Below, piece after piece: positions 7,598 to 35,680 of a stretch of 64,000 nt of DNA. Origin of the DNA: Candidatus Cloacimonadales bacterium (GTDB taxonomy: Bacteria > Cloacimonadota > Cloacimonadia > Cloacimonadales > JAFGVF01). The stretch lies in the NCBI GenBank assembly GCA_963677495.2, contig CAXXOU010000001.1:416001-480000 (forward strand), given 5' to 3'. Every line of letters starts with the position of its first letter. Position 1 is the first letter of the stretch. The notes under the pieces were generated by a model. It had not been told where the DNA came from. It saw only the letters and a program-made list of their open reading frames with translations, and did no database searches. Both the position numbers and the translations under genes were made by a program.

Positions 7598-9436
7598 TTA
7601 TATGTATTTTAATCCAAATCCATACGGGAATAATGGGTTATAGTCTTTATCTCCATAGTTCCAGTTCTCATCATCATATCTAGGCCAGGAGAAGGTTAAT
7701 TTTCCATTGAAGTTATAATCCCCAAACAGGACATCTGCAACACCGCTACCTTCAGAACCCGGTAACCAGGCTACAACGAAGGCATCAGATGCATCTATTT
7801 CATCATTTATAACTAAAGGTCTTCCACATACCATTACAGCAATGACAGGAATTCCTTTCTCGCGAATACTTATAATAGTAGCTAAATCTTCCGGATGGAG
7901 TTCATGATGATAAAGGTGAGTTCCATATGGCCCCTCTTTCATGATTGGAAAAGGTTCTTCCGGAGCATGCATAACAGAGGTAGAACCACAGCTAATCTTG
8001 ATACCTTTTTCAAGTCCGGGGACACGTAAATCACCTTCCATCTCAGCATAGGGGGTCTCACCGATTACAACTATTGCAACATCATGTTTAGATGAATCTG
8101 CCGTATCTCCATTAATGGAAAGTTCGGAGTTTGGAGCAATCGCTTGGATACCTTCCCAGATGGAAGTTCCACCAATAATCTCTTCATTAGTCTTAACACC
8201 TTGCCATTCGATAGTGAAACCACCGCACTGGTGTCCACGGTTGTTGGCATTTTTACCTGCCACAAGAATACGGGCATTTTTACTTAATGGTAATAGATTG
8301 TTTTCATTCTTAAGTAGAACAAGGGATTTACGGACAGCTTCTCTAGCAACTTCTCGATGAGCATCGCAACCGAAGACTGAATGGTCATTGGAATACTTAC
8401 GCTCAGATGGGCGCGGTTTGTCGAAGAGTCCGGAAGTAAACTTAACTCTAAGAACTCTTCTAACGGCATCATCAAGACGTTCCACTGGTATTCTACCTGA
8501 AGCGATGTGTGCTTTAACGAGTTCGATGAACTCTCTCCACTTCTCTGTTACCATAAATAGGTCTATCCCTGCATTAACAGACATAGCAACTGCTTCACTG
8601 AAGTCATCATCAAGATAGCCGATGCCATCCCAGTCCGAAACAACAAAGCCCTCGAATCCCAACTCTCTTTTTAAGACATCAGTAATGAGGTATTTGTGAC
8701 CATGTAGTTTCTCTTGATTCCAGCTACTCAGTGAAATCATTACTGTTTGAACTCCTGCATCTATTGCAGCTTTATAAGGTGGAAGATGAAGTTCTCTTAA
8801 CTCAGATTCAGTGATGCAAGCGTCTCCCTGATCGATACCATGAAGGGTCGCACCATCTCCAATCCAATGCTTAACGCAAGCAATCACGTTCTCATCATTA
8901 AAGTTACCTTGTAGTCCTTTCACAAAACGTGGAGCATACTTCGATACAATATCAGGAATCTCAGCATAGCTTTCATAAGTTCTACCCCAATGGTCGTTTC
9001 TTGCAACTGCTAATGTTGGTGCAAATGTCCAGTCAACACTAGTAGCAACAATCTCTTTTGCTGTTGCTTGAGCAATCTTCTCTAAAAGGTCAGGGTCGTT
9101 AGCTGCACCAAGTCCAATATTATGAGGGAAGACAACTGAGCCTTTGACATTGGTATTACCATGAATGGCATCCACACCATATACAAGTGGAATTGCAATA
9201 TGGTTTTCATCTTCATCCATAGAAGCAGCCCAATATGCATCATTCATTTCAACCCAGTCTTCGAGTCTGTTCTCACCCGGGGTTGAACCCCCACCACTTA
9301 GAACAGAACCAATATGGAACTGTTTTACCTCTTCCGGAGTAACAAACTCACGCTCCGGTTGAACAATCTGACCAACTTTTTGGTCTAAGTTCATCCGAAA
9401 CATTAACTCATCTATTTTCTGTTCGATTGTTTTCAT
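7598..9436 (-). CDS. GH3 beta-glucosidase / exo-1,3-beta-glucanase, cytoplasmic
   Basis: YGVDAIHG, WGRTYES, CVKHWIGDG, VVSDW nucleophile, AWLPGSEG; no signal peptide. Confidence 0.93.
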   Translation of the reverse strand: MKTIEQKIDELMFRMNLDQKVGQIVQPEREFVTPEEVKQFHIGSVLSGGGSTPGENRLEDWVEMNDAYWAASMDEDENHIAIPLVYGVDAIHGNTNVKGSVVFPHNIGLGAANDPDLLEKIAQATAKEIVATSVDWTFAPTLAVARNDHWGRTYESYAEIPDIVSKYAPRFVKGLQGNFNDENVIACVKHWIGDGATLHGIDQGDACITESELRELHLPPYKAAIDAGVQTVMISLSSWNQEKLHGHKYLITDVLKRELGFEGFVVSDWDGIGYLDDDFSEAVAMSVNAGIDLFMVTEKWREFIELVKAHIASGRIPVERLDDAVRRVLRVKFTSGLFDKPRPSERKYSNDHSVFGCDAHREVAREAVRKSLVLLKNENNLLPLSKNARILVAGKNANNRGHQCGGFTIEWQGVKTNEEIIGGTSIWEGIQAIAPNSELSINGDTADSSKHDVAIVVIGETPYAEMEGDLRVPGLEKGIKISCGSTSVMHAPEEPFPIMKEGPYGTHLYHHELHPEDLATIISIREKGIPVIAVMVCGRPLVINDEIDASDAFVVAWLPGSEGSGVADVLFGDYNFNGKLTFSWPRYDDENWNYGDKDYNPLFPYGFGLKYI

Positions 9437-9461
9437 TTATATATCCTTAATTATTTTAAGC

Positions 9462-12400
9462 TTAACCGAGTAATACATCGATTTGCTTAACAGTTCTATT
9501 TCTAACAGCTTCTGCATCATCACCTGAAAGGAATGTACTTTGGATTACTTTCTTTGTCCCATCAATAAACTCAAGTGTGTATGTAACAGGTTTGACAGAA
9601 ACTTCTCCAAATGTACTTTTCTTAGCTAAATTATGATAAGTTATCAAAATCCTTCCAAGATACATGAAACTAAATGTATTAGCAGAGAAAGTAATCTCTT
9701 TCCATTCATCTTTTATAAATAACTTTTTCGTCTTAGGAGTTTTCGTGAAAATCCAATCAGGCAGAACAGGATTAAGCTTAAAAATCAATCTCTGCTCGTC
9801 ATTAACTGAGAAAGGATATCTTCCTGTTGCCATGTGTAATAAGATACTTATGAATTCCGCAGTTGCACCACTAAGTCTTGCTACAAAGCCATTTCCATGG
9901 ATAGATGAGTCAGGATTACCACTACTCACAATAAATGATGAGTTTTCTAGGATACTACGACCATAAATCTCAGGTTTCAAGAATGGGATGAATACGCTTT
10001 TTGAATCTTCAAAGAAGTCGTCGTAAAGTCCATTTCTGAGAACTTCAAGCATATACTTATATTCCATGTGGAGCCACACAGATTCATTCTCAAACCAACC
10101 CGGTGAGAAAGTACGAGCTCTACCAATTTCCATTGGTTGATCTGCCAAGGATTCGTTAACTTTATACATTTTCAGTTTAGGGTCGAAGAGACCACTGTTT
10201 CTGATGTTCCTTACAAGTTTTTGTGAGATACTCTTATCCTGACTTGATCTTAAGAAATGTACCGGTCCTTCTAAGAAGAGCGGAAGGTGAATCAGTTCAA
10301 ACTCTAAAGCTTTGAAACAGGCTAATCCTTTGGCATTTCTCTTAACAACCTTTTTACCTTTAGGGTCAGTTTCATATATAAGCTCATGTTTTGAGACTTT
10401 GTTGATAAAATAAGTGGATATTACGTTCTGAGTCTTATTCCAAGCTTTCTCAATACCGTCCTCTATTCTTTCGAGACCTAACTTCAAGAGTGCCACTACT
10501 TGCTCAATTGATATCAGTAACTCTTTACCACTAATACCATATCGAGTCTTTTCGCGATACAGTTCCTTAAGTGAAGTAGCATTATCCCAATAGTTAAATG
10601 GAGAAGGATTCGTGTTCAGAAGCTCAAGAAGTGTTAATGCGAAAGTATGTAGCTCTTCCGGAATATTGAGTGAAGTGTTGGCATCTTGCCATTTCTCTAA
10701 TGAATCCAAAAGGAACTTGATATGTCTTTTCACTTCTAATGTTTCACTTAAACTGGAACCAATTAAACCGGGTAAACCATTCAGAGCATCATACCAGTTT
10801 GGCTTATCTGATTCCATTTCAATGCCAACCCCGGAACCATCCAGTGATGCGAGTTTGTTGATAATTAGACAAAGCATCTTATTGAAAAGGGTTGTATAAT
10901 ATACTTCACCCTTTCCATATTTTGTGTGAACTTTGTTTTTATCAATCAAGCGTTGGCTAAGAAGTTGCTCTTTCTCATCATCAAACACGACACTGTTAAG
11001 TTGCATGAGATTGCCATCCCAGATAACATACTTATCTTTTCTTGGGGCTACCAGATGCGGATTATCATAATATGTGTATTCTTTCTTGTTAAAGAGAAGA
11101 TTCACTTTCTCTTCCGGATAAACAGCTAAGTAGTTTTCTAATAGGTCTAAATTATAGGTCCAGTGATCTGTCCAATATCCTTCACCATAGCCTGTATCAT
11201 GCTTTTTAACACATAATCCAAGTAACTCTCCGAGGAATAGCTCAACATTATCGATACTTGTAACTTGAATATCCTTAAGGTAGGATAAAAGTTCTCCCGG
11301 GGTAAAAGGATTCATTAAATAATCTTTAACTAACTCTATTTGCTCTTTATTGATATAGCTTTTCAACAGGTTATTTAATTTCTTAGGTTTTGAAATAGCA
11401 AACCTAATCTCTTTTATCACAAGAGGGTTGAATCCATCTAATTGGATAAGGTTGTAGAAATGTTCAATATTACTATCTTTAACATCCGGATTGAAGAAAA
11501 GGTCGCTTCTACGATTCTGATTAACATCCCTGTAGTTTCCATTACCTTGGGAGTATTTTGTCGGGGTTAGTCGATAATCGTTATAATCTCTTTCTAAATC
11601 TCCATGTTTTCTTGAATAAAGATGGAGTGTTGTAGAGCTATTCTTACCTTCAATAGTATAAGGCATACCTCCCCTCAGTGCATTATCGAGGAAGTTTTGT
11701 TTAGCATAGAAATCAAAGGGATCTACATCACTGCAGATAAAGTTGTTTTGTGTGAGTTTGTCGATTAACTCATAATTTTCTATCTTCTTAGCTTCAATAT
11801 ACTCTGGATTTGCTATTGTTGGAATAAGTGAGTTTAACTCATCTACTGATTCAGCATGACCAATTACAGATGTGTAAGTGAATGCAGAGCCTGCAGCTAA
11901 TGAGACACTCATAATTCCCATTGCTGATGGAAGCCTATTCTCGAAAATCTGTCCTTTTAATAGTTCATCAACTGAACTTTGCAGGAACATTTCAGGAACT
12001 TTATAATCTCCTCTATTGCCAAAAATCTTTACGGGATCGACAATCGGGTCTACTAACTCAACTTTATCCCCAAGCTTCTTGAACCCAACGTAGAAATTAC
12101 CTTTCTTAATCCTTACAACATCAGGTCTATCGGAAGGTTCTACTTTACCTTTGAAGAAAGGAGCTTTGGCTTCATAGTTTGTTACTTCAACAAATGCTTC
12201 GAACAAGCGTCTCATGAATTTTAGACCATTATTATCAATACCATATGGTACAATCAAAGGTAAGCCATCCATGAGATCGAATGATATTGGACTGTCACCT
12301 AAGTTCTCTATTCTAAGTTCGCGTATTAATCCGGCATAGCTTTCTTGAGGAACATTACTATACTCAACGATGAATCTGAGCTGTAATGATTTATTTGTTT

Positions 12401-12782
12401 CAATAAGAGTCAGTCCTGCAGGTTTAATTATCATCTGTTGCTCAATCTGCATCTCTTTAGTCTGCAAATCTTTTTGGAAAGGTTCGTAGAAAGTATATGT
12501 ATCTTTACTTTTAAACTTTAAGAAAGTTCTGAAACCTTGAGATGATACAAGGTTATATGCCCAGTTTGCAGGCAAAAACTCCATAATTGGTTTGTGCTTC
12601 CCTTCAATACCCATACTACAAACACATTGTCCTCTATTCACATAGAAGAGCCACATTGGTATACCATCTTTCCCGGCAACACCAGGAAAGAAACTTGAGA
12701 ACAGTTTTGAAGAGTTGTAATCTGCTATTACAAATTCACCTGTTTGATTCAATCTATATTTATTATTGGTAGGATTCATCAC
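9462..12782 (-). CDS. Beta-1,3-glucan phosphorylase, GH161-like (GH94/GH149/GH161 group)
   Basis: ~1100 aa; FSSFFPGVAG..GIPMW.FYVNRGQ, SRKHGDLERDYN, QGNGNYRDVNQNRR, KPNWYDALNGLPG, GWFENESVWLHMEYKY, FVARLSGATAEF; beta-glucanase context. Confidence 0.78.
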   Translation of the reverse strand: MMNPTNNKYRLNQTGEFVIADYNSSKLFSSFFPGVAGKDGIPMWLFYVNRGQCVCSMGIEGKHKPIMEFLPANWAYNLVSSQGFRTFLKFKSKDTYTFYEPFQKDLQTKEMQIEQQMIIKPAGLTLIETNKSLQLRFIVEYSNVPQESYAGLIRELRIENLGDSPISFDLMDGLPLIVPYGIDNNGLKFMRRLFEAFVEVTNYEAKAPFFKGKVEPSDRPDVVRIKKGNFYVGFKKLGDKVELVDPIVDPVKIFGNRGDYKVPEMFLQSSVDELLKGQIFENRLPSAMGIMSVSLAAGSAFTYTSVIGHAESVDELNSLIPTIANPEYIEAKKIENYELIDKLTQNNFICSDVDPFDFYAKQNFLDNALRGGMPYTIEGKNSSTTLHLYSRKHGDLERDYNDYRLTPTKYSQGNGNYRDVNQNRRSDLFFNPDVKDSNIEHFYNLIQLDGFNPLVIKEIRFAISKPKKLNNLLKSYINKEQIELVKDYLMNPFTPGELLSYLKDIQVTSIDNVELFLGELLGLCVKKHDTGYGEGYWTDHWTYNLDLLENYLAVYPEEKVNLLFNKKEYTYYDNPHLVAPRKDKYVIWDGNLMQLNSVVFDDEKEQLLSQRLIDKNKVHTKYGKGEVYYTTLFNKMLCLIINKLASLDGSGVGIEMESDKPNWYDALNGLPGLIGSSLSETLEVKRHIKFLLDSLEKWQDANTSLNIPEELHTFALTLLELLNTNPSPFNYWDNATSLKELYREKTRYGISGKELLISIEQVVALLKLGLERIEDGIEKAWNKTQNVISTYFINKVSKHELIYETDPKGKKVVKRNAKGLACFKALEFELIHLPLFLEGPVHFLRSSQDKSISQKLVRNIRNSGLFDPKLKMYKVNESLADQPMEIGRARTFSPGWFENESVWLHMEYKYMLEVLRNGLYDDFFEDSKSVFIPFLKPEIYGRSILENSSFIVSSGNPDSSIHGNGFVARLSGATAEFISILLHMATGRYPFSVNDEQRLIFKLNPVLPDWIFTKTPKTKKLFIKDEWKEITFSANTFSFMYLGRILITYHNLAKKSTFGEVSVKPVTYTLEFIDGTKKVIQSTFLSGDDAEAVRNRTVKQIDVLLG

Positions 12783-12847: not shown

Positions 12848-14722
12848 TTATTTGAGTAGAACCATTCTTCGGGTTTCTACAGGATTGTTGTTTACAGAAA
12901 GAGAATAGAAGTAGATTCCTGAGGCAACTTTATCAGCATTCCATTCTACTGTATGAGTAGCTGGTGATTTATAACCATCAGCTAATGTTTCAACTAATCG
13001 ACCTTTCACATCATAGACTTTCAAGCTTACATTAGCTGATTTGCTTAATGAGTAGCTGATACTTGTCCTTGGATTGAAAGGATTAGGATAATTGTTACCT
13101 AAACGATAAGTAGCACTTGATACGTTTGTTACATCATCCAAGCTTGTTGGTCTGTCATAGAAATATATGTTATCAATATAGAGAGTGTTAAGGTCTCCTG
13201 AGATAATCAACTGAGCTAAATGAGCTTGAGATGTTAGATTAGCAAAATCAGTGAAAGGTAAGTCCAAGCTTATCCAAGAACCGGAAGCAAGGATATTATT
13301 ACCAAGTATCAGTTCATGTTCTGTATCGTCTCCGCCACTCCAGGCACCGTCAGCACCAAAATCAACTAACTTGATTTTTAATTCTGTTGTGTCTGCAATA
13401 GCATCTGGAGTCCAAATATCCAAATGGAAGTTTGTCATTGCACTAGCATCAATTGTTTGAGATGTAAACTCAATTCCTAAGAATACGAGACTTGTGTATA
13501 GTTTTACATCATCACCTTCAACTTGTATATCTGATACATTCGCATTATCCCAATCAGCTGACCATGTGTCGATAGCAACATCTGTATAAGCGTTACTGAA
13601 CATTGAAATTACAGCTTCTGCTGGAGCTGTTGGTGTTGGTGCAGCAACTGTTGGACCTACAGGACCGGTATTCCCATCATGGAAGTATATATTATCTACG
13701 TATAGAGTGTTAGGATCACCGGATATAACTAACTGAGCAAGATGCTCCGTTGAAAGCAGATTAGTGAAATCTGATAATAGGATGTCCAAGCTAACCCAAG
13801 AATTTGGGATAACTATATCTTCAAGGAATGATAACTCATACTCTGAATCATCGCCACCAGACCACATGCCATCAGCACCGAAATCAACTAACTTGATTTT
13901 CAATTCCTCTAAACCTGTAATTGTGTCAGGAGTCCAAAAATCAAGATGGAAGTACTCCATGGCTGTAGCATCGATTGTGTTAGATGTGAACTCAATCCCT
14001 GCAAAAGATAGATTGGAATATAACTTAACATCATCTCCGGCAATTTGAACATCACTTACATCAGCATTATCCCAATCTGCAGACCATGTATCAACAGGAT
14101 TATCAGTATAGGCATTACTGAAGATTGAGATTACAGCATCACTAGAATGCATTGGTATAGGGGCTGCTGTTGTAGGTTCAGGGATTGGGGCAACATTGGT
14201 TTCAGGTAATTGAATATTATCAAAATAAAGAACATTATCAGCTGTTCTTGCTTCAAAATCAGGGATGACAATTAATCTGCTATATGTATTCCCTATCGAA
14301 CCTGAGAAATCGAAAGTTAATTCTTCCCACTGGTTTGTGAGAGTGTTAGCTACTTGCAATTCAACAGGAGCACTTGTTCCTTCAAACTTAATCGCTACAT
14401 TACTCACAACCGGTTTATACATCATGATTGTAACTGTTGTATTATTAGCAGTAAATTCGAAAGGTTCCATATCATCGCTAAAGCATAATGCCCAAGGTTG
14501 ACCACTTGCTCTTGCTGTGAACATAGCACTATTAGCTGAGTTATTGATGCCTGATGCATCAGGATTAGCAACAAACTCGAGAGGTGGATTGTCTCCATTC
14601 TCACCAACTGTCCAACCCCATTCAGCTCCTAAGCTTCCTGGTTCAAAATCTACATTAACATACTGTGCAAACATAGTCGCACAAAGCGTTAAAACAATTA
14701 ATGTTATTATATTCTTTTTCAT
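12848..14722 (-). CDS. Secreted non-catalytic protein with CBM-like modules (A+B+B) and T9SS-type C-terminal domain
   Basis: Signal peptide; two copies of AP.P..VIS.FS.AYTD..DTWSADWD...; C-terminal NNYPNPFNPRTSISY...RRMVLLK. Confidence 0.8.
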   Translation of the reverse strand: MKKNIITLIVLTLCATMFAQYVNVDFEPGSLGAEWGWTVGENGDNPPLEFVANPDASGINNSANSAMFTARASGQPWALCFSDDMEPFEFTANNTTVTIMMYKPVVSNVAIKFEGTSAPVELQVANTLTNQWEELTFDFSGSIGNTYSRLIVIPDFEARTADNVLYFDNIQLPETNVAPIPEPTTAAPIPMHSSDAVISIFSNAYTDNPVDTWSADWDNADVSDVQIAGDDVKLYSNLSFAGIEFTSNTIDATAMEYFHLDFWTPDTITGLEELKIKLVDFGADGMWSGGDDSEYELSFLEDIVIPNSWVSLDILLSDFTNLLSTEHLAQLVISGDPNTLYVDNIYFHDGNTGPVGPTVAAPTPTAPAEAVISMFSNAYTDVAIDTWSADWDNANVSDIQVEGDDVKLYTSLVFLGIEFTSQTIDASAMTNFHLDIWTPDAIADTTELKIKLVDFGADGAWSGGDDTEHELILGNNILASGSWISLDLPFTDFANLTSQAHLAQLIISGDLNTLYIDNIYFYDRPTSLDDVTNVSSATYRLGNNYPNPFNPRTSISYSLSKSANVSLKVYDVKGRLVETLADGYKSPATHTVEWNADKVASGIYFYSLSVNNNPVETRRMVLLK

Positions 14723-14742: not shown

Positions 14743-17700
14743 CTACCGAACCGGTGTATCGCTTGCTTTTACATAATAGAATTTTCTTGATGTTCCTGCA
14801 GAACCGGTCCAACTTGTTCCATTATAGTTACCACCTGTAACTGGTGTAAAGTCACCATCCGGAGTTTCTGATTCATAAACAATATATGAGGATGCACCGG
14901 TAACTTCATCCCATGCAACTGTAACATCTGTACCAGTAACAGAAACTGTAACACCTTGTGGTATTCCGAGTGATAAAGGATTATCATTATAGAAATATAC
15001 GTTATCAATATAGACTGTATTTGGAGTTCCTGAGATAATCAACTGAGCCAAATGACCTGTGGTTGTTAAGTTAATAAAATCTGTAAGTGGAATATCAAGA
15101 CTTACCCACATTTCAGTATTCATTGTAGTTTCACCGAAAACAAGTTCATGCTCTACGTCATCTCCACCACCCCAAGAACCATCAGCACCAAAATCAACAA
15201 GTTTCACTTTAAACTCTGAAGGTGCAGAAGTATCATCCGGAGTCCATATATCCATATGGAAATGAGTCAATGAAGTTGCATCTATAGTTTGAGATGTAAA
15301 CTCAATTCCTGCAAAAACAAGATTAGTGTACAGTTTAACATTATCAGCTCCAACAAGCTCATCTTCAACGTCAGCTAAATCCCAAGGTGCTGACCACGTA
15401 TCAACAGTAACATCCTGATAAGCATCACTATACATAGAAATCACATTAGTGGCATCAGCAGTTGGCGTTGGAGCAGGTGCTTCAGGAGCTGGGTCAGCAA
15501 CGGTAAAGTTAATAGTATATGTCAATTCAGTTATACCGTCATCAGCTGTTACAACAATAGTACTTGCACCCGGTACAGAAGCAGGATTGTTCACAACATA
15601 ACTTGCGTTTGGATCATTTGTGATTGCTGTAATGGTTGGAACTCTCTGTGAACCTGAAGACAGTTCATACTCATATGTAAGAATTATTGAGGAGAATCCA
15701 TCAATAGATGTTCCTCCTACTCTAAGATCTGCTAAAGTAGCATCTGTTCCAGCAGCAGCAGGTGTCTTCCAAAAATAGATATTATCAAGATATATGGTTG
15801 AAGGTGTTACGCCAGCCTGACCATCAAACTTAAGCTGATGAATATCAGACATAGATACACCTGTGAAGTCTGACAATGGTATATCGAAGCTATTCCAAGC
15901 CATTGGTGTAATTGGTGTCAAAGAAACAAGAGATTCACCGGTTGACGCACTAATAGGTGAGAATAATACTACTGTTGCATCTTCAGTCCACATATCGATA
16001 TGGATATATTCCATTAAAGATAAGTCTTGATTACCATTCAATTGAGTTCCTTGATAATTAAAAGTATCATACTTCATCATATTGTTTCCTGCAACATCTT
16101 CAAAGCTTACTTGAGTTGATTGTCCCCACCATGGATTGAAGTTAGTTCCGGCAATATCTGTGTATGAATCACTATAAATAGAAATAACATCGTCAGCTGC
16201 ATCTGTCGGTTCTGGAGCAGGATTTGTTACTGTTGCAGGAGGGTCATCGACTGTGAAGTTGATGCTATATGTTTCAGTATCAGTGCCATTTTGAGCTGTT
16301 ACTACTACTTGAGTTGTTCCCGGTAAGGAAGCTGCATCATTTACAGTATGCGAAGCTAATGGGTCAGCAGTAGTAGCAGTAACTGTTGGTACTGCAGTAG
16401 TATCCCAGTCTAATAAAACATCATAGATAAGAGTTGTTGGAGAGAAACCACTTACTGTGGAACCATCTATTTGTAAGTCTGCCAAAGTTGCATCAGTACC
16501 TGCAACTGTAGGAGTTTTCCAGAAGTAGATATTATCAAGATAGATTGTAGAAGGATTTACACCGGCTTGACCATCAAACTTTAGTTGGAATATATCAAAC
16601 ATTGCAACTCCAGTAAAATCACTGAGAGGAATATCATAACTATTCCATGAACCAATATTAATTGGAGTTAGTGAAACTAAGTGTTCACCTGTTGTCTGAC
16701 TGATAGGTGAGAAAAGAATTACAGTTGCATCTGGAGTCCAGAGATCTATATGGATATATTCCATTGTAGATAAGTTTTGTACTGGTAGTTCTGTTCCTTG
16801 ATAATTGAAAGTATCATATTTCATTACATTGTTACCGACAATATCTTCAAAAGAAACTTGTGTAGATTGACCCCAGAACGGATCAAAGTTAGTTCCTGCG
16901 ATATCAGTATAAGAATCACTATAAACAGATACTACGTTTTCTTGTAACTCATCAGGAGTAGGTGCAGGTGTATCTAAAACAGTCGGTTGGGCAACTGTAA
17001 AAACTACACTGTAAGTAATCATAGTAGTTCCATCTTCGGCAGTTACAACTACTTCTGTTGTACCAGGTAATGATATAGCATCATTTACTACATGGGATGC
17101 ATTAACATCTGTAGTAGTTGCGGTTACAGTTGGAACAACAGTTGTACCTTCAGGAAGTTCAACATTGTATGTTAATGTATTTGTATCGAAGCCTGAAACT
17201 GTAGTCCCATCTATTAAGAGATCATTTAAAGTAGCATCACTACTTAATATAGGTGCTGAATAGAAGTAAATATTGTCAAGATATATAGTAGATGGAGAAA
17301 CACCACTCTGTCCATCAAACTTAAGTTGATGTATATCAATGAAAGATAAACCAACAAAATCTGTAAGAGGGATATCATAACTATTCCAGGTTTCAGTTGC
17401 TATTGGAGTAAGTGATACCAGATGCTCCCCGGTTGTAGCACTTATTGGTGAGAATAAAACTACGGTTGCATCTTCAGTCCACATATCGATGTGAACATGA
17501 GTCATAGAGCTTAAGTCATGAGCACCTAACAACTGAGTACCTTGATAGTTAAATGTGCCATATTTAAGCATATCGTTTGTATCAATCACTTCTGTAGTTA
17601 CAACTGTTGATTGTCCCCAAGGTGGGTTGAAATCAGTTCCTGCTAAATCAGTATATTCATCTGAGAATATTGAGATAACATCGGTTTCATTTTCATCCGG

Positions 17701-18285: not shown

Positions 18286-18303
18286 TGTCTCCTCCATATC
18301 GCT

Positions 18304-26084: not shown

Positions 26085-26125
26085 TGCTATATAGCAAATA
26101 GCCGTTTTTCTTTTTTCAATGTCAA
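26085..26125 (-). promoter_or_regulatory. Promoter of the left glucan operon with palindromic operator TGCTATATAGCA
   Basis: TTGACA on the minus strand at 26125-26120; perfect 12-bp palindrome at 26085-26096. Confidence 0.65.
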
Positions 26126-28250: not shown

Positions 28251-28257
28251 TTTTCAC

Positions 28258-28721: not shown

Positions 28722-31700
28722 ATGACGAAACATTATTGCTCTTATTCAATAAAACGGTTTATAATTACTTTAACTATAATGCTATTTATTAGCATTGCTT
28801 TTGCTTCAAATTCAGTAGAAACCTACAGAGATGAACATGGCTGGAAACTGAAAGTTGATAATGAAGACTATTTTGTGAGAGGAATGGTTTGGGGTTACAC
28901 CCCGATTGGAGAGAACTATTCTTACAATCTTTGGGCTAATTCAGATGAGAAAATTAAGAAGATTCTTGATTACGAATGCAATCTGATGAAAAAAGCCGGT
29001 GTAAACACAATCAGACAATTTGGTGTTATTCCGCCTAAGTGGGTTACTTATATTTATCGTGAACATGGAATCATGACTATGGTGAATCATCTCATGGGTA
29101 GATATGGCTACAATGTTGATGGTAAGTGGCATGTCTGGACTAAATATGATGATCCACGGACTCGAGAAGTTTTAATCAATGACTTTGTAGAGATGGTTGA
29201 GAAATTCAAAGATGTTGAAGGTGTCATTGCTTTTGCTCTCGGTAATGAGAGTAATTATGGACTTGAGTGGTCCAGTTTTGAGATTGAAAACCTTCCGGAA
29301 GGTGAACGCTATCAGGAAAAAGCTACGCATCTCTATACTCTCTTCAATGAAGCTATGAGACAAGCTAAAATGGTCGATAGCACGCACCCTTATCTCATTG
29401 TTAACGGTGATATTCAGTACTTAGATATAATAAAAGAAAAGTGTACTGATATGGATATTCTCGGTGTAAATTCATACCGTGGTGTTAGCTTCACTGATAT
29501 GTGGCAGCGTGTTCACGATGAAGCTGATTTGCCAATCTTGCTTACAGAGTTCGGTAGTGATGCCTTTAATGCTCTTACTCATAAAGAGGAGCAGGAAGGT
29601 CAAGCATATCTGGTTAAGGGTAACTGGGATGAGATTTACAACAAAAGCTATGGCAATGGTGAAGAGGGAAACGCTATTGGTGGTTGCCAGTTTGAATGGC
29701 GCGACGAATGGTGGAAATACAAGCAAACCGAGAATCTTGAAGTTCAGGATACTAATGCATCATGGAGCAATGGTGGCTATTCATTTGACTTTGTGCATGG
29801 CGTAAACAACATGAATGAGGAGTGGTTTGGGATCTGCCGTTTAGCAGGTCCAAATGATGATGGTGTCTATGAAGCTATCCCTCGTATGGCTTATGATGTA
29901 TTAACAGAAGTTTGGAAGATAGATCCTTATAAATTAGATAAAGTTGAGATGAATGATAAGCTACAATCCATTGATATGGATTTCCTTAAGATGAAAAGTA
30001 GCTTAAGAACTCTGACAAAAGATATGCATGAGCAGAAAGCTTTTAGATTCACAGGAGGTAAGTTAGAAGGTGACTTAGCACTTACAGGTGAATCAGAAGC
30101 TGTTGAGAATAACGGCAAAAGTGGATTAGAGTTTACAAATGGTGAAAAGCTATTCCTTGATTTTGCATTTAATCCTACTGGTAGAATCGAAGGTAAGTTC
30201 ACTCTTAACATTCTTGGAAATGTAGTTGACCTCCCAATGGAGCAATACTACGGAAAGCGTGGTGACTCATATATCTCTGTAGCAACAGAAGAAAATGATC
30301 AAGGCATCGATGTACTCTCAACTAAAGAGATTACTGATAACGAACGCATTGAAATATATAGTTTTGAAGCTAAATATAAAGCTGACATGTTCGACTTTAC
30401 TGCATTTTATCATGTACCTCGATTCCATTGGGGCTATGAAGGTGATTTTTTTGGCCTTATGAGAGAAGCTACTGATATGGAAGGGATGGATATCTGGAAT
30501 GCAAAAGCACCGTTTGGTGTTGAGTTTGCTGGTAAGAAATCACTTAATGGTTTAACAGTTGTAACCGGACCGGAAGTCTATTGGGGTGCTAACCCTAAAG
30601 CTATTGTGAAATATGACTTTGATTTTTTGGGCTCTGAATGGACTTTTATCCACTCAGAAGATTTCTCCCAAGCTGATGCTTCTGCAACTGCAACTGAAGC
30701 AACTGAAAAGGCTACTCGCCAAACAGCACTCTCTTTTGAAGCAGAAATGGGTGCAGGTATTACTCTTCAAGCCGGTTACTTGATGTCCGGTACTGAAAAG
30801 ATAGATGAAGAATATTCCTATATGGATGATAACGAGCTCTACAAAGATGAGATAGAATTCAAGGATACTCAAGCTGCAAAAGCTAAGCTTTCCTTTAGCT
30901 TGGGTTCTACTCTCATAGACCTATCGGCTAACTATTCAGGTTTGGTAGCTGATGCAGGTGAAGCCTTGGATGAAAGAGATACCACAATGCCATACTCTGA
31001 TTTAGGTAACAAGATAGTATATGAAGCAGGAATGTTAATTCCTATCGGGAATGTCTGGTTACTTCCAAGAGCTATGTATAGAACTAATCTGCTTGAATCA
31101 ATGGAAGCTACTGATGCATACATAGACGGAACATCTTTCTATCCCGGTACAACTCCAAGAAATAGAGATAGCGATCCGTTTGCTGTGTTAGGAAACCGTG
31201 AAACCATATCAGGAGAATTCTTCCTTACTTATGACCCGACTCCTGCCAGCTACTTCTATGTTTGGAATAGAGACGAAAAAGAGGATGCTAAGTTTGCCTT
31301 TACTATAGGTGGTAACTATACTGAATATAAAGAAGATACTGATGCTCATCTTTTTTACTATCAGGAAGGTGAAACTAATGCACCATTCGGTAGCGGATTG
31401 CCTGCTGAGGAAGTATGGTTAGGGAAAAGTATTATTATAATGAATCCAAACCCCAACTTCAAAAGTGTTATTACTTTGGAGACTGGTAAGCAACAATCTA
31501 CCGGTAATCCTGATGGGGATGCTACAGAATTTTACTCAATAGAGACTAAGTTCCTAATCAACAAAACTCATTATATTCAAGCATATGCAAAGAAGGATGC
31601 TTGGGGACCTTACGATTGGTACAGACAATTTAATATCATTTATCCATACCAATACAAATTAGATTATTCATTCCTAATTGATAATCTCTTCAATATGGAA

Positions 31701-31829
31701 AAATCAAGTAGATTAGGTGTAAAAGCACTCTTTAGAGAGTTGGATGAGAGCTCTCCTATCAATGAAGGTGGTGGAATTGATAATGACTATGAGTTCCAAG
31801 CCGGTATCTACTACAGCATAGGATTTTAA
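28722..31829 (+). CDS. Clan GH-A (GH2 TIM-barrel-like) glycoside hydrolase fused to a predicted outer-membrane beta-barrel
   Basis: Signal peptide; GVNTIR, GNESNY (acid/base), LTEFGSD (nucleophile), NEEWFG; C-terminal ~590 aa with amphipathic strands ending YEFQAGIYYSIGF. Confidence 0.75.
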   Translation: MTKHYCSYSIKRFIITLTIMLFISIAFASNSVETYRDEHGWKLKVDNEDYFVRGMVWGYTPIGENYSYNLWANSDEKIKKILDYECNLMKKAGVNTIRQFGVIPPKWVTYIYREHGIMTMVNHLMGRYGYNVDGKWHVWTKYDDPRTREVLINDFVEMVEKFKDVEGVIAFALGNESNYGLEWSSFEIENLPEGERYQEKATHLYTLFNEAMRQAKMVDSTHPYLIVNGDIQYLDIIKEKCTDMDILGVNSYRGVSFTDMWQRVHDEADLPILLTEFGSDAFNALTHKEEQEGQAYLVKGNWDEIYNKSYGNGEEGNAIGGCQFEWRDEWWKYKQTENLEVQDTNASWSNGGYSFDFVHGVNNMNEEWFGICRLAGPNDDGVYEAIPRMAYDVLTEVWKIDPYKLDKVEMNDKLQSIDMDFLKMKSSLRTLTKDMHEQKAFRFTGGKLEGDLALTGESEAVENNGKSGLEFTNGEKLFLDFAFNPTGRIEGKFTLNILGNVVDLPMEQYYGKRGDSYISVATEENDQGIDVLSTKEITDNERIEIYSFEAKYKADMFDFTAFYHVPRFHWGYEGDFFGLMREATDMEGMDIWNAKAPFGVEFAGKKSLNGLTVVTGPEVYWGANPKAIVKYDFDFLGSEWTFIHSEDFSQADASATATEATEKATRQTALSFEAEMGAGITLQAGYLMSGTEKIDEEYSYMDDNELYKDEIEFKDTQAAKAKLSFSLGSTLIDLSANYSGLVADAGEALDERDTTMPYSDLGNKIVYEAGMLIPIGNVWLLPRAMYRTNLLESMEATDAYIDGTSFYPGTTPRNRDSDPFAVLGNRETISGEFFLTYDPTPASYFYVWNRDEKEDAKFAFTIGGNYTEYKEDTDAHLFYYQEGETNAPFGSGLPAEEVWLGKSIIIMNPNPNFKSVITLETGKQQSTGNPDGDATEFYSIETKFLINKTHYIQAYAKKDAWGPYDWYRQFNIIYPYQYKLDYSFLIDNLFNMEKSSRLGVKALFRELDESSPINEGGGIDNDYEFQAGIYYSIGF

Positions 31830-31840: not shown

Positions 31841-32464
31841 ATGAAAAGATATAAAATACTTATTATAATATCTGTTTTGGCATTGTTACTTATCGCAGGT
31901 TGTGATGTTAAGAATGGTATAACCTCCACAACTATGGAATTACCTACAGGTAATACTTTAGACCTTTATTCAACAGATGAAGGTGTACATCCTAATACTG
32001 ATATTCTTGATAATCCGGAAAATCCATTCGCAAAGGCAAGCATCAGTATGGACAATGTATGGGAATTCAATGATGAAGCCCCATCTGCAATCTCAAGATT
32101 CTATCTTTGGGGTACTATGCTTGCTAAGATTCCTATGGGTGAACACCAGTACTTTACTGCTAAATCACTGCATGAAATCTACACTGAAAGTGGAAGCATC
32201 AATGCAAAAGAACAAACGAAGAAAGCTTATAGAGCACTTTTAGACCATTTCTACGACTCAGTAACGTGGTGGAATGCCTGGTGGATAGATGAAGATACTT
32301 ACTATGCAGTTATCCTTCGTGATATGGTTGGCGAAGCTATGTATGACCCATCAGAGATGAATCTTATGCCATTGTATACTGACCCTGCCCTCGCACTTGC
32401 TGATCTGAGTGAATGGGGATATGTATATGACTTTGAAGCTAATAAGTTAACAAAAAGGCAATAA
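31841..32464 (+). CDS. Hypothetical lipoprotein, aromatic-rich
   Basis: Lipobox IAGC; GGAGG RBS; tightly coupled to both neighbours. Confidence 0.8.
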   Translation: MKRYKILIIISVLALLLIAGCDVKNGITSTTMELPTGNTLDLYSTDEGVHPNTDILDNPENPFAKASISMDNVWEFNDEAPSAISRFYLWGTMLAKIPMGEHQYFTAKSLHEIYTESGSINAKEQTKKAYRALLDHFYDSVTWWNAWWIDEDTYYAVILRDMVGEAMYDPSEMNLMPLYTDPALALADLSEWGYVYDFEANKLTKRQ

Positions 32465-32465
32465 A

Positions 32466-34250
32466 ATGAATAGAATAATTATCCTCATATTTGCATTAAC
32501 TCTAATATCCGGCTTAGCAGCCGAGATTGGTGATGTGATTTGGGAAGAGAACTTCAACAACCTCGAAAACTGGATTATCGAAACCGGTAATGGTTCTTGG
32601 GGTTGGGGAAACGGTGAACTTGAGTGTTATTTAGAAGGTAATGTTGATATTACTGAGATTCCGGGAGAACCCGGTAACAATGCATTGAGAATTACAGCAC
32701 GTCAAGAATCAGGCCCACATATTACTGACCAATGGGGTAATCCTTTGAACTACACATCAGGTAGATTGAATACTAAATCAAAAGTATCTATTCAATATGG
32801 TGTAATTGAAGCAAGAGTCCTAATTCCGGATATTGATTTAGGTGGTTGGCCTGCTGTTTGGTTGCTTGGAACAAGTAATTATGGTTGGCCTCGTTGTGGT
32901 GAAATTGATATGATGGAAATGGGGAGCAGACAAGCTTTCCGTAACCTGCATGATGCCCATAACGGAGGAAACAATCAAGATAATGCTAATGTAAATCAAG
33001 CTGTTGGAGCTAATGCAATCTTCTATCATGAAGATTCAATTACTCCTGAGAATCCTACCGGTGCAGCAAGTACATCATGGGATCCTAATGACGAGAATTG
33101 TCGTCCATATTATAGCTATGATCCTCCGTTAACAGGAAGGTTTATTACGTATAGAGCTTATTGGGATAATGCTAGCCTTCGTTTTACTGTGATAGATAAC
33201 GGAGTTGAGCATGATCTTTATGAAGAAGCACTATATTTTGATGAGCATTCAGCTGAGTTTCAAAACCCATTCTATTTGGTAACTAACTTTGCGATTGGTG
33301 GTTATTTCACAGATGCTCAAACTCTCGATGGTTCCGGAGCTCCTATTTCAATGTCATTCCCGGCTGAAATGTATGTTGATTATATTAAAGTTATGGAATG
33401 GAATGATATGGGGGAAGTTAATGTTGGACCTCCAACTTTCCAATATGACACTTTTGGTATTTTTACTGACCAAACAGAGACCTATAATAGTCTTCAAGTT
33501 GGCGTAGATGCAGAGATATATGTTTGGGAAGGTACATTGTCAGAAGGCTCCATTCCTCCTTATGAAGGTGAGAATGGTGTGACCTGGGCTACAACCGGAA
33601 CCGGATGGTTTGGTGCAGGAGTTATGTCTGCCCAGCCAACAAACTTGTTCAACTTTGGGGATGGACACCTCAAGTTCCATATCAATATCCCCGCAAACGT
33701 GACATTTAAGATTGGTATTATCGATGCCTGGGGGAATCAGTCATATGTTGATTTCCCAGCCCATCAGACAGTTTATGGTCTTGAACGGAACGGACAATGG
33801 GGTCAAGCAGCTATACCTGTAGAAGATATTCGAGGCGAGTTTATTGACCTTAGAATGCTTAGTTATGAGTTTGTTATACTCGAAGAATCCGGAATACAAT
33901 GCGAGTTTGCTATTGATAATATCTATTGGGATGGTGGGCTTGTTTCTAATGATGAAAACACAAACCCAATTGTGAACTTTGATTTGAAGCAAAACTATCC
34001 GAATCCATTTAATCCTACAACCACTATCTCATACAGTTTGGATAACACAAGCTATGTCGAGATAGAAATCTACAATCTTAAAGGACAGAAGATTAAGACG
34101 TTAGTGTCTAAAAGCCAAACAAAAGGCAGTCACTCTGTCGAATGGAACGGTAAAGATGTAAGTGAACACACAGTAAGTTCTGGTGTTTATTTCTATAAAT
34201 TGAATGTTAATAATCAATCTACTATGAAGAAGATGATTTTACTTAAATAA
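32466..34250 (+). CDS. GH16 laminarinase + CBM-like module D + T9SS-type C-terminal domain
   Basis: GWGNGELE.Y, YTSGRL, WPAVWLLG, GEIDMME; QNYPNPFNPTT...KKMILLK. Confidence 0.92.
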   Translation: MNRIIILIFALTLISGLAAEIGDVIWEENFNNLENWIIETGNGSWGWGNGELECYLEGNVDITEIPGEPGNNALRITARQESGPHITDQWGNPLNYTSGRLNTKSKVSIQYGVIEARVLIPDIDLGGWPAVWLLGTSNYGWPRCGEIDMMEMGSRQAFRNLHDAHNGGNNQDNANVNQAVGANAIFYHEDSITPENPTGAASTSWDPNDENCRPYYSYDPPLTGRFITYRAYWDNASLRFTVIDNGVEHDLYEEALYFDEHSAEFQNPFYLVTNFAIGGYFTDAQTLDGSGAPISMSFPAEMYVDYIKVMEWNDMGEVNVGPPTFQYDTFGIFTDQTETYNSLQVGVDAEIYVWEGTLSEGSIPPYEGENGVTWATTGTGWFGAGVMSAQPTNLFNFGDGHLKFHINIPANVTFKIGIIDAWGNQSYVDFPAHQTVYGLERNGQWGQAAIPVEDIRGEFIDLRMLSYEFVILEESGIQCEFAIDNIYWDGGLVSNDENTNPIVNFDLKQNYPNPFNPTTTISYSLDNTSYVEIEIYNLKGQKIKTLVSKSQTKGSHSVEWNGKDVSEHTVSSGVYFYKLNVNNQSTMKKMILLK

Positions 34251-34281: not shown

Positions 34282-34312
34282 TTAACTCTATTAAGAACCC
34301 TTAGGAGGGAAC

Positions 34313-35680
34313 ATGAAAAAAACTAGTATATATTTATTGATTCTACTTGTAGCATTTGCAGTTAATGCTTTCGCTCAAAACGCACCAGTTGACTTTGAAG
34401 CCGGTGGACATGGAGCAAACTGGACTTGGGCAGTGTTTGAGAATGATTCAAACCCACCTTTAGAGATTATCCCTAATCCTGATGCAACAGGTGTTAATAC
34501 ATCATCTACTGTTGCACAGTTTACTGCTCTACAAGCAGGTCAACCTTGGGCAGGAACAGAATCTATGCATGGTACTGATATTGGTACTTATGATATTGAT
34601 TCTACTAATAGCACTATTACAATCATGGTTTGGAAACCTGTTATCAGCGACGTTGGTATTAAACTTGTTAAACCTGATGGTTGGGCTTTACCAGAGATCA
34701 AAATCTCTAATACTGTTACTAATGCTTGGGAAGAGATTACTTTTGATTTTTCATCACAGATTGGAGCAGGTTATGATCAAATAGTGATATTCCCTGATTT
34801 CGACTTGAATGGTAGAACTCAAGACAATGTTTGTTACTTTGATAATATCACTTTCTCAGGACAGGGAGCTTCTCCTGATGGACCTGCTACTCCTGCACCT
34901 ACACCAAATTATGCTGAAGCTAATGTTATCTCATTATTCAGCGATACTTATACTGATGTGAATATTGATACTTGGTCTGCTGATTGGGATGATGCTAATG
35001 TCGCAGAAGCACAAGTTGAAGGTAATAATATGAAGCTTTATACTGCTCTTAACTTTGCAGGTATTGAGTTTACTTCTCAACCACTTGATGTTAGTGGTAT
35101 GAACCACTTCCATATGGATTTCTGGACACCAGACCCAACAGCATTACCTGCTGTATTTAAAATCAAGTTAGTTGACTTTGGTGCTGATGGTGTTTGGGGT
35201 AATGATGATGTAGAGCATGAGCTTGAATTCACTGCACCTACTCTTGAAACAGAAAGCTGGGTAAGTTTTGATATTCCTCTTACAGATTTTGCAGGCTTAA
35301 CTACTACTGAACACATAGCTCAGCTAATCATCTCAGGTGATCCCAATACCGTTTATTTGGACAACATCTACTTCTTCGATGGTGTAGTGAGTAATGACAA
35401 TGTTATCAATTTGAATGTGGGTTCTCTTGGAAACAACTATCCAAATCCATTCAATCCTGTAACAAACATCAGTTACTCAATAACAGAACCTGGTCATGTA
35501 CGTTTGGATGTATTTAACCTGTTAGGTCAACATGTAGAAACACTTGTTGATAAACATCACTCAGCAAATTCATATACACATACATGGGATGCTAATGATA
35601 TTCAGTCCGGTGTTTACTTCTACAGAATGTCCGTTGATAATAAGACAATAGATACTAAGAAGATGATTCTTCTTAAATAG
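34313..35680 (+). CDS. Secreted non-catalytic protein with CBM-like modules (A+B) and T9SS-type C-terminal domain
   Basis: Paralogous to 12848..14722; NNYPNPFNPVT...KKMILLK. Confidence 0.82.
   Translation: MKKTSIYLLILLVAFAVNAFAQNAPVDFEAGGHGANWTWAVFENDSNPPLEIIPNPDATGVNTSSTVAQFTALQAGQPWAGTESMHGTDIGTYDIDSTNSTITIMVWKPVISDVGIKLVKPDGWALPEIKISNTVTNAWEEITFDFSSQIGAGYDQIVIFPDFDLNGRTQDNVCYFDNITFSGQGASPDGPATPAPTPNYAEANVISLFSDTYTDVNIDTWSADWDDANVAEAQVEGNNMKLYTALNFAGIEFTSQPLDVSGMNHFHMDFWTPDPTALPAVFKIKLVDFGADGVWGNDDVEHELEFTAPTLETESWVSFDIPLTDFAGLTTTEHIAQLIISGDPNTVYLDNIYFFDGVVSNDNVINLNVGSLGNNYPNPFNPVTNISYSITEPGHVRLDVFNLLGQHVETLVDKHHSANSYTHTWDANDIQSGVYFYRMSVDNKTIDTKKMILLK

What the first reader, a model, noticed from the sequence alone, without database searches (positions are those of the whole stretch)
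7598..35680. Complete SusC/SusD-free beta-1,3-glucan utilisation locus with an apparently different uptake route
Seen: two divergent operons (8 + 4 genes) around a GntR/LacI regulator, encoding exported GH16 x2, GH17 and GH30, three binding-module proteins, an MFS symporter, and cytoplasmic GH3 plus a GH161-like phosphorylase. Established: this enzyme set is typical of laminarin PULs, which in Bacteroidota import through TonB-dependent SusC/D. Seen: no SusC, SusD, TonB or ABC genes in the locus. Inference: capture by secreted CBM arrays, outer-membrane passage through the GH-barrel fusion (28722), inner-membrane import by the CBM-bearing MFS, then energy-saving phosphorolysis. This would be a PUL architecture not built on the Sus paradigm, in a probable anaerobic Cloacimonadota.
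Basis: partly seen in the sequence, partly recalled or inferred. Interest (0 to 1): 0.85.

Follow-up and report, generated by a model that had tools for sequence, protein, structure and literature searches.

The report
Glucan locus with enzyme-fused membrane barrel
An uncultured anaerobic bacterium carries a complete gene set for eating beta-1,3-glucans such as algal laminarin without the usual SusC/SusD importer, and its only co-regulated outer-membrane protein is a glucan-cutting enzyme fused to a large, unnamed barrel that probably serves as the entry channel.

Summary
The 13 genes are real and the enzyme calls hold (GH161, GH16 x2, GH17, GH30, GH3, GPH-type MFS, GntR/LacI regulator). The locus is conserved in Cloacimonadota (barrel in 38 of 232 genomes, none with SusD). 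This 99.5% complete genome lacks SusD but does encode six TonB-dependent receptors, TonB and a sugar ABC system elsewhere. The 28722 protein models as an intact GH158/157-like TIM barrel plus a 24-strand, plug-less outer-membrane barrel with no close solved relative; topology puts the enzyme in the periplasm. A 207-aa lipoprotein follows it in 100 of 102 loci. It sits in SusC's position in a Bacteroides locus, and a probable homologue heads the receptor-free laminarin PUL 2 of Formosa. Transport is untested (about 60%); the MFS 'CBM' is only a lead. SusCD-free laminarin loci are known; the barrel is undescribed in my searches. This scan found the fusion before on other DNA.

The parts
7598..9436 (-). 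GH3 exo-beta-glucanase/beta-glucosidase, no signal peptide (cytoplasmic); would hydrolyse the laminaribiose left by GH161
   Evidence: Pfam GH3 N+C; E 1.6e-168 to 3rrx; next to GH161 in 13 of 19 related stretches
9462..12782 (-). GH161 beta-1,3-glucan phosphorylase, no signal peptide
   Evidence: E 6.3e-221 to 9qqk GH161; far below the GH149 cut-off
12848..14722 (-). Non-catalytic binding-module protein: module A + 2x module B + T9SS-type C-terminal tag
   Evidence: TIGR04183 above cut-off; module map
14743..18297 (-). Large binding-module array: module A + 4x module B with cadherin-like spacers; signal peptide, no T9SS tag detected
   Evidence: 8qx6 match E 1.3e-6; cadherin-like; module map
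18304..19449 (-). GH17 beta-1,3-glucanase; probable start at Met18 (19398), lipoprotein
   Evidence: E 5.1e-13 to 6fcg; GNE and GEIGW motifs; lipobox read from sequence
19395..21083 (-). GH30 (subfamily 1/3-like), probable beta-1,6 debranching enzyme with a signal-peptide-like N-terminus
   Evidence: Pfam GH30 212 bits; PDB and NCBIfam matches below equivalog cut-off
21088..23001 (-). GPH-type MFS symporter (inner-membrane step)
   Evidence: MFS_2 205 bits; TIGR00792 160 bits, under cut-off 231
22192..22683 (-). ~165-aa soluble insert between MFS helices 3 and 4 (periplasmic loop by GPH topology); CBM-like, unproven, variable
   Evidence: alignment of forms with and without it; atlas 0.84 to Exop_C/CBM30 clusters; 13 of 33 and 0 of 7 rows
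23014..26034 (-). Lipoprotein GH16 laminarinase with two module-C domains; first gene of the minus operon
   Evidence: E 1.6e-53 to 3azx; EIDIME and Cys23 lipobox
26085..26096 (.). Operator, perfect palindrome TGCTATATAGCA
   Evidence: only exact copy in the genome; rank 1 of 2522
26556..27611 (+). GntR-HTH / LacI-type sugar-sensor regulator, probable repressor of both operons
   Evidence: Pfam GntR + Peripla_BP_3; syntenic at 59-84% identity
28656..28667 (.). Operator, one mismatch (TGCTATATAGAA)
   Evidence: rank 2 of 2522
28722..31829 (+). 1035-aa fusion: signal peptide, clan GH-A TIM barrel (about residues 30-405, Asn175-Glu176 and Glu276 invariant), linker helix, outer-membrane barrel
   Evidence: AlphaFold pLDDT 84; fold matches GH158/GH2/GH157 Z 28; invariant columns
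30042..31829 (+). 24-strand plug-less beta-barrel (residues 441-1035), long conserved aromatic loops on one face, short turns and both termini on the other, C-terminal Phe
   Evidence: AlphaFold pLDDT 93, pTM 0.87; strand and loop table; only distant barrel matches
31841..32464 (+). 207-aa lipoprotein of no known family; constant neighbour of the barrel, candidate lid or assembly partner
   Evidence: Cys21 lipobox; directly downstream in 100 of 102 loci; no Pfam or PDB match
32466..34250 (+). Secreted GH16 + module C + T9SS-type tag
   Evidence: EIDMME; TIGR04183; module map
34313..35680 (+). Binding-module protein: module A + module B + T9SS-type tag
   Evidence: 8qx6 match E 7.1e-7; TIGR04183

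Best explanation
A self-contained, GntR-repressed regulon for beta-1,3(/1,6)-glucans in which the 28722 protein stands in for SusC. Steps: (1) T9SS-tagged CBM proteins and a GH16, with the lipoprotein GH16, bind and nick the glucan outside the cell (family-level inference; binding untested). (2) Oligosaccharides cross the outer membrane through the 24-strand plug-less barrel, whose conserved aromatic loops line the entrance; the 207-aa lipoprotein is its partner (inferred from models, gene context and exclusion; transport and binding not shown). (3) The fused GH-A domain, on the periplasmic face, cuts the incoming chain so that it cannot slide back; GH17 and GH30 shorten and debranch it (topology from the model; coupling inferred). 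(4) The MFS symporter imports short oligomers, in some lineages with a periplasmic CBM-like insert (inferred). (5) GH161 phosphorolyses them to glucose-1-phosphate down to laminaribiose, which GH3 hydrolyses (established chemistry of GH161, PMC6484121). Odds: substrate class about 0.9; barrel as the uptake route about 0.6; independence from TonB about 0.5.
For: Enzyme set all points to beta-1,3-glucan. No SusD in the 99.46% complete genome, control rings in B. thetaiotaomicron; SusD in 6 of 232 phylum genomes and in none of the 38 with the barrel. Barrel and GH161 co-occur in 34 genomes (38 and 41 singly). Operator ranks 1 and 2 of 2522 upstream regions (scores 18.1, 18.0); all six TonB receptors and the ABC/SBP genes score 1.4 or less. 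In 20 locus-bearing genomes all 32 exact sites fall at the locus (31, judged by coordinates) or at a relocated GH16/CBM pair (1). No TonB receptor or SusD among 113 unassigned larger ORFs around related loci. Confident barrel model, 24 strands, N-terminus on the short-turn side. Stand-alone barrels of 564-598 aa with their own signal-like N-terminus exist, so the barrel has a job without a passenger. In Bacteroides finegoldii the order is regulator - fusion - CBM lipoprotein - GH16 - two more genes - GH3 with no susCD, the layout of the B. uniformis 1,3GUL with the fusion where SusC/SusD/GH158 stand (PMC7157763). Formosa PUL 2 lists no TonB receptor; its first gene FORMB_24670 (117 kDa, signal peptide, not a lipoprotein) is 1.19% of the membrane proteome on laminarin, 196-fold over glucose, above the PUL 1 and PUL 3 receptors (0.46, 0.45%) (PMC6246565 supplements); Bacteroidota members of this family weigh 115.9-119.6 kDa.
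Against: No transport, localisation or activity measurement exists for any member I could verify. The genome does have six TonB-dependent receptors, six TonB_C matches and a CUT1-type ABC system; a constitutive one could serve without an operator. I could not see model coordinates, so a linker helix threaded through the pore (enzyme outside) is not excluded. FORMB_24670 is tied to this family by size, annotation and position only, not by sequence, and Formosa also has two SusCD laminarin PULs that could feed PUL 2. F. agariphila's similar PUL has SusCD and 7 of the Woeseiaceae laminarin PULs carry a susC; whether these also hold the fusion I could not test. Four genomes have the barrel without a GH161 match and seven the reverse (most on short contigs). 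Related genomes are not independent samples. The GH family and hence the substrate of the fused enzyme are not resolved (Z scores tied).
Confidence: 0.6

Rival explanations
1. Autotransporter-like anchor: the barrel exports and displays its own glucanase domain on the surface, the linker helix filling the pore; oligomers enter through general porins.
For: N-terminal enzyme, ~19-residue helix (419-437), C-terminal barrel ending in Phe is the type V layout; the probable Formosa homologue is also found in the extracellular fraction (0.67%).
Against: 24 strands, twice the 12 of classical autotransporters (recalled); stand-alone barrels with no passenger; loops are strongly conserved and aromatic; the cell already has T9SS and lipoprotein routes for its other enzymes.
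Confidence: 0.17
2. Uptake runs through one of the TonB-dependent receptors (or a porin plus the ABC system) encoded elsewhere and not under this operator; the fusion is an accessory membrane-bound glucanase.
For: Six receptors, TonB/ExbBD and a CUT1 ABC system are in the genome; in Formosa a receptor-free PUL 2 coexists with SusCD PULs.
Against: None has the operator; their neighbours look like cobalamin/iron, sensor-kinase and T9SS-type clusters by sequence inspection (not all Pfam-checked); no SusD; no off-locus operator before a transporter in 20 genomes.
Confidence: 0.12
3. The barrel is an exporter: a translocon that puts the neighbouring lipoprotein(s) on the surface (Slam-like), or a polysaccharide export pore (AlgE/BcsC-like) with a fused editing glucanase.
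For: The next gene is a lipoprotein in all 102 scorable loci (100 the 207-aa family, 2 CBM lipoproteins); AlgE and the FimD/PapC ushers are among the nearest folds.
Against: No glucan synthase in the locus or flanks scanned; fold matches are weak (TM 0.37 or less, rmsd over 4 A); a conserved catalytic domain makes little sense on a protein translocon; the locus is otherwise catabolic.
Confidence: 0.08

Closest known systems
Laminarin PUL 2 of Formosa sp. Hel1_33_131 (FORMB_24670-24750; PMC6246565) and the Muricauda laminarin loci (bioRxiv 10.64898/2026.01.22.701063)
   Same: GH16, GH17, GH30, MFS, a phosphorylase, CBM/PKD proteins and a leading ~117 kDa 'GH2/hypothetical' gene; no TonB receptor listed in PUL 2; 'Sus' and 'TonB' do not occur in the Muricauda main text
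   Different: GH161 instead of GH149; GntR/LacI repressor instead of a LuxR-type regulator; T9SS-tagged CBM arrays; 207-aa lipoprotein; no SusD anywhere in the genome, whereas Formosa has two SusCD laminarin PULs; the papers do not describe a barrel
Bacteroides uniformis 1,3GUL (PMC7157763): HTCS, SusC, SusD, SGBP-B, GH16, GH158, GH3
   Same: Substrate, surface binding proteins, GH16, a GH158-like fold, GH3
   Different: No SusC/SusD; GH158-like domain fused to a barrel; cytoplasmic phosphorolysis after MFS import
GH161 clusters of Gram-positive bacteria (PapP; PMC6484121)
   Same: GH161 with GH3/GH30/GH16
   Different: There with ABC transporters and mostly no outer membrane; here a diderm with MFS and an outer-membrane barrel
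Sugar-specific porins (LamB, chitoporin ChiP), AlgE, FimD/PapC ushers, TonB-dependent receptors
   Same: Outer-membrane beta-barrel; FimD/PapC align end to end, as expected for 24 strands
   Different: Best TM-score 0.37, identity 11% or less; no plug; fused glycosidase; no Pfam or NCBIfam family for the barrel
GH158 / GH157 endo-beta-1,3-glucanases (9oro, 6pal, 9fz9)
   Same: TIM barrel fold Z 25-28; Asn-Glu acid/base and Glu nucleophile motifs conserved
   Different: Sequence match only E 0.11, 16-20% identity; GH2 scores as high by Z; the Ig-like domain is replaced by a membrane barrel

Membership tests
Canonical Bacteroidota PUL (SusC/SusD) | susC-like TonB-dependent transporter in the locus | tested here: not met
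   No Plug or TonB_dep_Rec match in the 13 proteins; genome matches lie elsewhere
Canonical Bacteroidota PUL (SusC/SusD) | susD-like lipoprotein | tested here: not met
   PF07980 and PF14322: 0 in the genome, control positive; PF12771 and PF12741 not searched genome-wide but absent from the locus proteins
Canonical Bacteroidota PUL (SusC/SusD) | Co-located, co-regulated CAZymes, binding proteins and regulator | tested here: met
   Operon spacing, synteny and shared operator; regulation inferred, not measured
TonB-dependent transporter (for 28722) | N-terminal plug domain and 22-strand barrel | tested here: not met
   N-terminal domain is a TIM barrel; model has 24 membrane strands; no Plug hit
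TonB-dependent transporter (for 28722) | Transport needs TonB | not testable with these tools
   Genome encodes TonB/ExbBD
Autotransporter (type Va) | Signal peptide, N-terminal passenger, linker helix, C-terminal barrel | tested here: met
   Layout in model
Autotransporter (type Va) | 12-strand translocator barrel (recalled) | tested here: not met
   24 strands; no autotransporter Pfam hit
Autotransporter (type Va) | Passenger exposed at the surface | not testable with these tools
   Model coordinates not viewable
GH161 | Full-length homology to characterised GH161 | tested here: met
   E 6.3e-221 over residues 16-1022; GH149 model far under cut-off
GH161 | Phosphorolysis of beta-1,3-oligoglucans of DP 3 or more | not testable with these tools
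   Known for PapP (PMC6484121)
GH158 (for the fused enzyme) | Clan GH-A fold with Asn-Glu acid/base and Glu nucleophile | tested here: met
   (motifs in 236 and 233 of 245 full-length homologues)
GH158 (for the fused enzyme) | Sequence-level family membership | tested here: inconclusive
   phmmer E 0.11; Z tied between GH158, GH2, GH157; no CAZy HMMs available
CBM-bearing MFS | Insert is a recognised CBM | tested here: inconclusive
   No Pfam hit; atlas 0.84, below the lead threshold of 0.9
T9SS cargo (type A CTD) | C-terminal sorting domain and a translocon in the genome | tested here: met
   TIGR04183 above cut-off on 3 proteins; PorV 2 above cut-off, weak SprA_N match on a 2063-aa ORF
Laminarin-binding CBM of C. 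forsetii SGBP (CBM102, name and PDB link recalled) | Homology of module A to the solved module | tested here: inconclusive
   E 7e-7 and 1e-6 to 8qx6 over ~100 residues; binding residues not compared

The most novel reading that the evidence does not exclude
The fusion defines a third kind of outer-membrane glycan importer, next to TonB-dependent SusC/SusD and small sugar porins: a 24-strand plug-less pore with a lipoprotein partner and a built-in periplasmic glucanase that ratchets beta-1,3-glucan inward without TonB. It heads laminarin loci across several phyla, is mis-annotated as 'GH2/GH0/hypothetical', and is already among the most abundant laminarin-induced membrane proteins in bloom flavobacteria. 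Cloacimonadota, nearly free of SusD, rely on it alone.
Probability: 0.45. Interest if true: 0.9.

Novelty: new variant of a known kind. Interest (0 to 1): 0.7.

Why it matters
Laminarin is a major marine carbon pool and its uptake is read almost entirely through SusC/SusD or TonB receptors; loci without them are filed as incomplete 'CAZyme clusters'. If this barrel is the importer, such loci are complete, PUL predictions and metaproteome budgets miss a main transporter, and an enzyme-coupled large pore would be a new mechanism. This genome is a clean case: near-complete, SusD-free, with a two-operon regulon whose only outer-membrane barrel is this protein. It also gives an uncultured anaerobic phylum a defined role in beta-glucan turnover. 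The idea is directly testable in cultivable carriers (B. finegoldii, Persicobacter, probably Formosa and Muricauda).

Tried and rejected
Sequencing runs: no RNA holder listed. Viral contigs: 72 pattern matches, none a relative. I could not reach Bacteroidota or Gammaproteobacteria genomes with the genome search, so co-occurrence of the fusion with susCD in those phyla rests on two records; the Persicobacter flank was not Pfam-scanned, only its SusD distances (about 30 and 42 kb) are known. The lipoprotein matched nothing in PDB sequences or Pfam and was not folded. No close fold for the barrel was listed; this does not exclude a family. A short likeness between the lipoprotein and the GH domain (hhalign probability 2.5%) was rejected as chance. 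GH149 for 9462-12782 was rejected. The sigma-54 activator at 35862 was left out of the locus: a homologue lay near it in 1 of 28 loci. Other high operator scores in the genome lie inside ORFs or score 16.4 or less before unrelated genes. Literature: ten searches listed no paper describing this barrel or this locus; subscription papers and bioRxiv supplements were not searchable, and 2 supplement files of PMC10108472 were not searched, so the identity of its 'GH0' stays open.
Full report
Observation. The window lies in a 3.41-Mb, 4-contig genome rated 99.46% complete. Gaps inside the runs are 1-65 nt. Family calls hold: GH161 (E 6e-221 to 9qqk; the GH149 model scores 109 against a cut-off of 1150), two GH16 with EIDIME/EIDMME, GH17, GH30, a signal-less GH3 closest to exo-1,3/1,4-beta-glucanases and a GPH-type MFS. 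Three non-catalytic proteins are built from two repeated modules; module A resembles PDB 8qx6 (E 7e-7, 1e-6), which I recall as the laminarin-binding module of the Christiangramia SGBP (bioRxiv 2023.09.07.556657, passages seen give no PDB code). Three proteins carry a T9SS-type tag above cut-off and the genome has PorV and a weak SprA match.

Organism and spread. Of 28 genome loci found with the barrel, 27 are titled Cloacimonadota and one Delongbacteria; the nearest named is Ca. Zophobacter franzmannii at 84%. In the 232 genomes of the phylum the barrel is in 38, GH161 in 41, both in 34, SusD (PF07980) in 6, none of them among the 38. The seven GH161-only genomes show the same operon on contigs of 3-31 kb. 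Gene order GH3-GH161-CBMs-GH17-GH30-MFS-GH16 / regulator / fusion-lipoprotein-GH16 recurs; GH3 is missing beside GH161 in 6 of 19 stretches. Kin are not independent, so I draw no statistic from these counts. The fusion is far wider than the phylum: 2674 and 5142 proteins pass in two word-limited searches, with names from Bacteroidota, Gammaproteobacteria, Spirochaetota and Oligoflexus.

Is another importer doing the job? The genome has no SusD by two models, with a positive control, but it has six TonB-receptor plugs, six TonB_C matches and two solute-binding proteins above cut-off, one in a CUT1-type ABC cluster. So the cell is not TonB-free. I found a palindrome, TGCTATATAGCA, 50 nt before the minus operon and, with one mismatch, 54 nt before the fusion. 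It is exact in 33 of 41 orthologous upstream regions and within one mismatch in 39 of 41, against means of 0 and 0.08 in 100 shuffles. A weight matrix trained on those other loci ranks the two operons 1 and 2 of 2522 ORFs (18.1, 18.0); the six receptors, two of their operon heads and the three ABC/SBP genes score 1.4 to -8.1 (ranks 411-2366). The third-ranked site (17.4) lies inside an ORF. In 20 locus-bearing genomes there are 32 exact sites: 31 fall at the locus by coordinates and one lies between a relocated GH16 and CBM-array gene pair. Four of 9 locus-free genomes have one site each, all inside ORFs. Around related loci, 113 larger ORFs without a BLAST match to the locus proteins were scanned (31, 44 and 38); none was a TonB receptor or SusD, two were orphan sugar-binding proteins (L081, L092). 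A constitutive importer would escape it.

The fusion. AlphaFold gives a TIM barrel, a linker helix and a beta-barrel (pLDDT 84); the barrel alone reaches pLDDT 93, pTM 0.87. I count 24 membrane strands. Loops after odd strands are 7-44 residues, turns after even strands mostly 2-6, so both termini lie on the short-turn side, which in outer-membrane proteins is the periplasm (established rule). The best-conserved segments are aromatic loops 3, 4 and 11 and an unusual 20-residue turn 8. Fold searches return only distant barrels: TM 0.37 or less; Z 14.7 for AlgE (rmsd 6.5, 294 aligned) and OpdQ, 13.1 for FimD aligned end to end. The enzyme domain ties between GH158 (Z 28.1), a GH2 (27.8) and GH157 (27.7); Foldseek puts GH157/GH158 first. 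Asn175-Glu176 and Glu276 are invariant in 108 homologues, so it looks active. Six stand-alone barrels of 564-598 aa begin with a signal-like peptide just before strand 1, three of them in clusters of 14-27 members. A 207-aa lipoprotein of no known family follows the barrel in 100 of 102 scorable loci (110 examined, 8 too short; many are the same taxa); in the two Bacteroidota records a CBM lipoprotein takes that place. Binding of the pair is untested.

Context elsewhere. In Bacteroides finegoldii: DUF6377 regulator, fusion, CBM lipoprotein, GH16, fimbrillin-family, hypothetical, BglX, with no SusD on the 46-kb record. The B. uniformis 1,3GUL has HTCS, SusC, SusD, SGBP-B, GH16, GH158, GH3 (PMC7157763, passages). 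In Formosa B the authors list three laminarin PULs; 1 and 3 have receptor and SusD, PUL 2 (FORMB_24670-24750) has neither. Its first gene, a 117-kDa 'GH2/hypothetical' protein with signal peptide and no lipobox, is 1.19% of the membrane proteome on laminarin, 196-fold over glucose and above both PUL receptors (PMC6246565: passages, supplement files 2, 4 part 2, 6 part 14, 9 part 1, search rows of others). Bacteroidota members of the fusion family weigh 115.9-119.6 kDa (104 proteins). That it is a member is inference; I could not fetch its sequence. The Muricauda preprint (section 5 and passages) describes the same cluster with a 'GH2' and never mentions Sus or TonB. Against a simple replacement: Formosa keeps SusCD PULs; F. 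agariphila's related PUL has SusCD (bioRxiv 2026.01.10.698779, section 5 and passages); seven Woeseiaceae laminarin PULs carry susC (PMC12175321, passages); and bloom PULs with a highly expressed 'GH0' are mostly defined by susCD (PMC10108472, passages). I could not test whether those hold the fusion.

The MFS insert is real, about 165 aa between helices 3 and 4, present in 13 of 33 Cloacimonadota-type rows and 0 of 7 others. Its likeness to CBM30/Exop_C (0.84) is a lead. It is not essential to the design.

Mechanism. Shown here: gene content, conservation, operator, absence of SusD, predicted fold. From established families: GH161 needs DP 3 or more and leaves laminaribiose (PMC6484121, passages), which the cytoplasmic GH3 would finish. 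Inferred: surface capture and nicking, passage through the barrel, cleavage on the periplasmic face as a ratchet, trimming by GH17/GH30, MFS import, derepression by an oligosaccharide. I put the barrel-as-importer reading at 0.6, surface anchor 0.17, uptake by an unlinked receptor 0.12, export 0.08.

Novelty. Laminarin clusters without susCD are in print (PMC5827456, passages; PMC6246565), GH161 clusters are described mainly from Gram-positives with ABC transporters, and secreted beta-glucanases were noted in Ace Lake Cloacimonadota (PMC8542988, passages). PMC8527192 and bioRxiv 2020.06.09.142968 (passages) added nothing on this locus. Ten searches listed no description of the barrel or of this locus. 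The locus is therefore a new variant of a known kind, carrying one component that may be categorically new. Earlier notes of this scan reported the same fusion, the MFS insert and similar loci in other genomes; they are not evidence. What this window adds is a near-complete SusD-free genome, a phylum-wide count, and a regulon test that leaves the barrel as the only co-regulated outer-membrane candidate. Interest 0.7.

Noticed in passing
window 27819-28406: The 1.1-kb gap between regulator and fusion holds a 200-bp tandem duplication (88-95% identical) and a CACTGT/ACAGTG-rich imperfect inverted repeat; probably dispersed repeat elements.
   Followed up: no
G-handle genomes: Chance copies of the operator occur in 4 of 9 locus-free genomes (inside ORFs) but in 0 of 20 locus-bearing genomes outside the regulon; possibly selection against decoy sites. 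Small sample.
   Followed up: partly
L014, L016, L019, L020, L023, L045, L059-L108 (gene after the lipoprotein or after GH16): Many loci carry a second, barrel-less ~600-aa GH-A protein about 23-25% identical to the fused enzyme, some with a C-terminal CBM30-like part; absent from this window.
   Followed up: no
proteins P0443-P0562: Bacteroidota-type members end in Lys or Arg rather than the usual terminal Phe (78 K and 22 R against 105 F among 245 full-length proteins).
   Followed up: no
G000:C1:214015-223560: TonB receptor (1028 aa), ExbB, two ExbD, TonB, a CTD protein and a PorV-like gene in one run: looks like the energising unit of a T9SS-like system; about 170 ORFs in the genome carry a CTD-like tail.
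   Followed up: partly
G000:C3:464285-469550: Sugar-type ABC genes of unusual build: binding protein fused to a permease (819 aa) and a second permease with a ~500-aa soluble insert. No operator.
   Followed up: partly
L003/L128/L129 and L131: In two complete relatives the locus is split: the fusion-lipoprotein-GH16 block lies about 75 kb from the rest in one, and a GH16/CBM pair moved with its own operator in the other.
   Followed up: partly
L081:5068-6519, L092:8405-9808: Orphan sugar-binding proteins (SBP_bac_1) without permeases inside fusion loci of high-GC metagenome contigs.
   Followed up: no
window 2985-4829: Amino-acid permease fused to a PTS EIIA-2 domain.
   Followed up: no
window 52420-54685: IS21-type transposase and IstB ATPase pair.
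   Followed up: no
window 43134-45086: 650-aa ORF with no Pfam match in a low-GC stretch.
   Followed up: no
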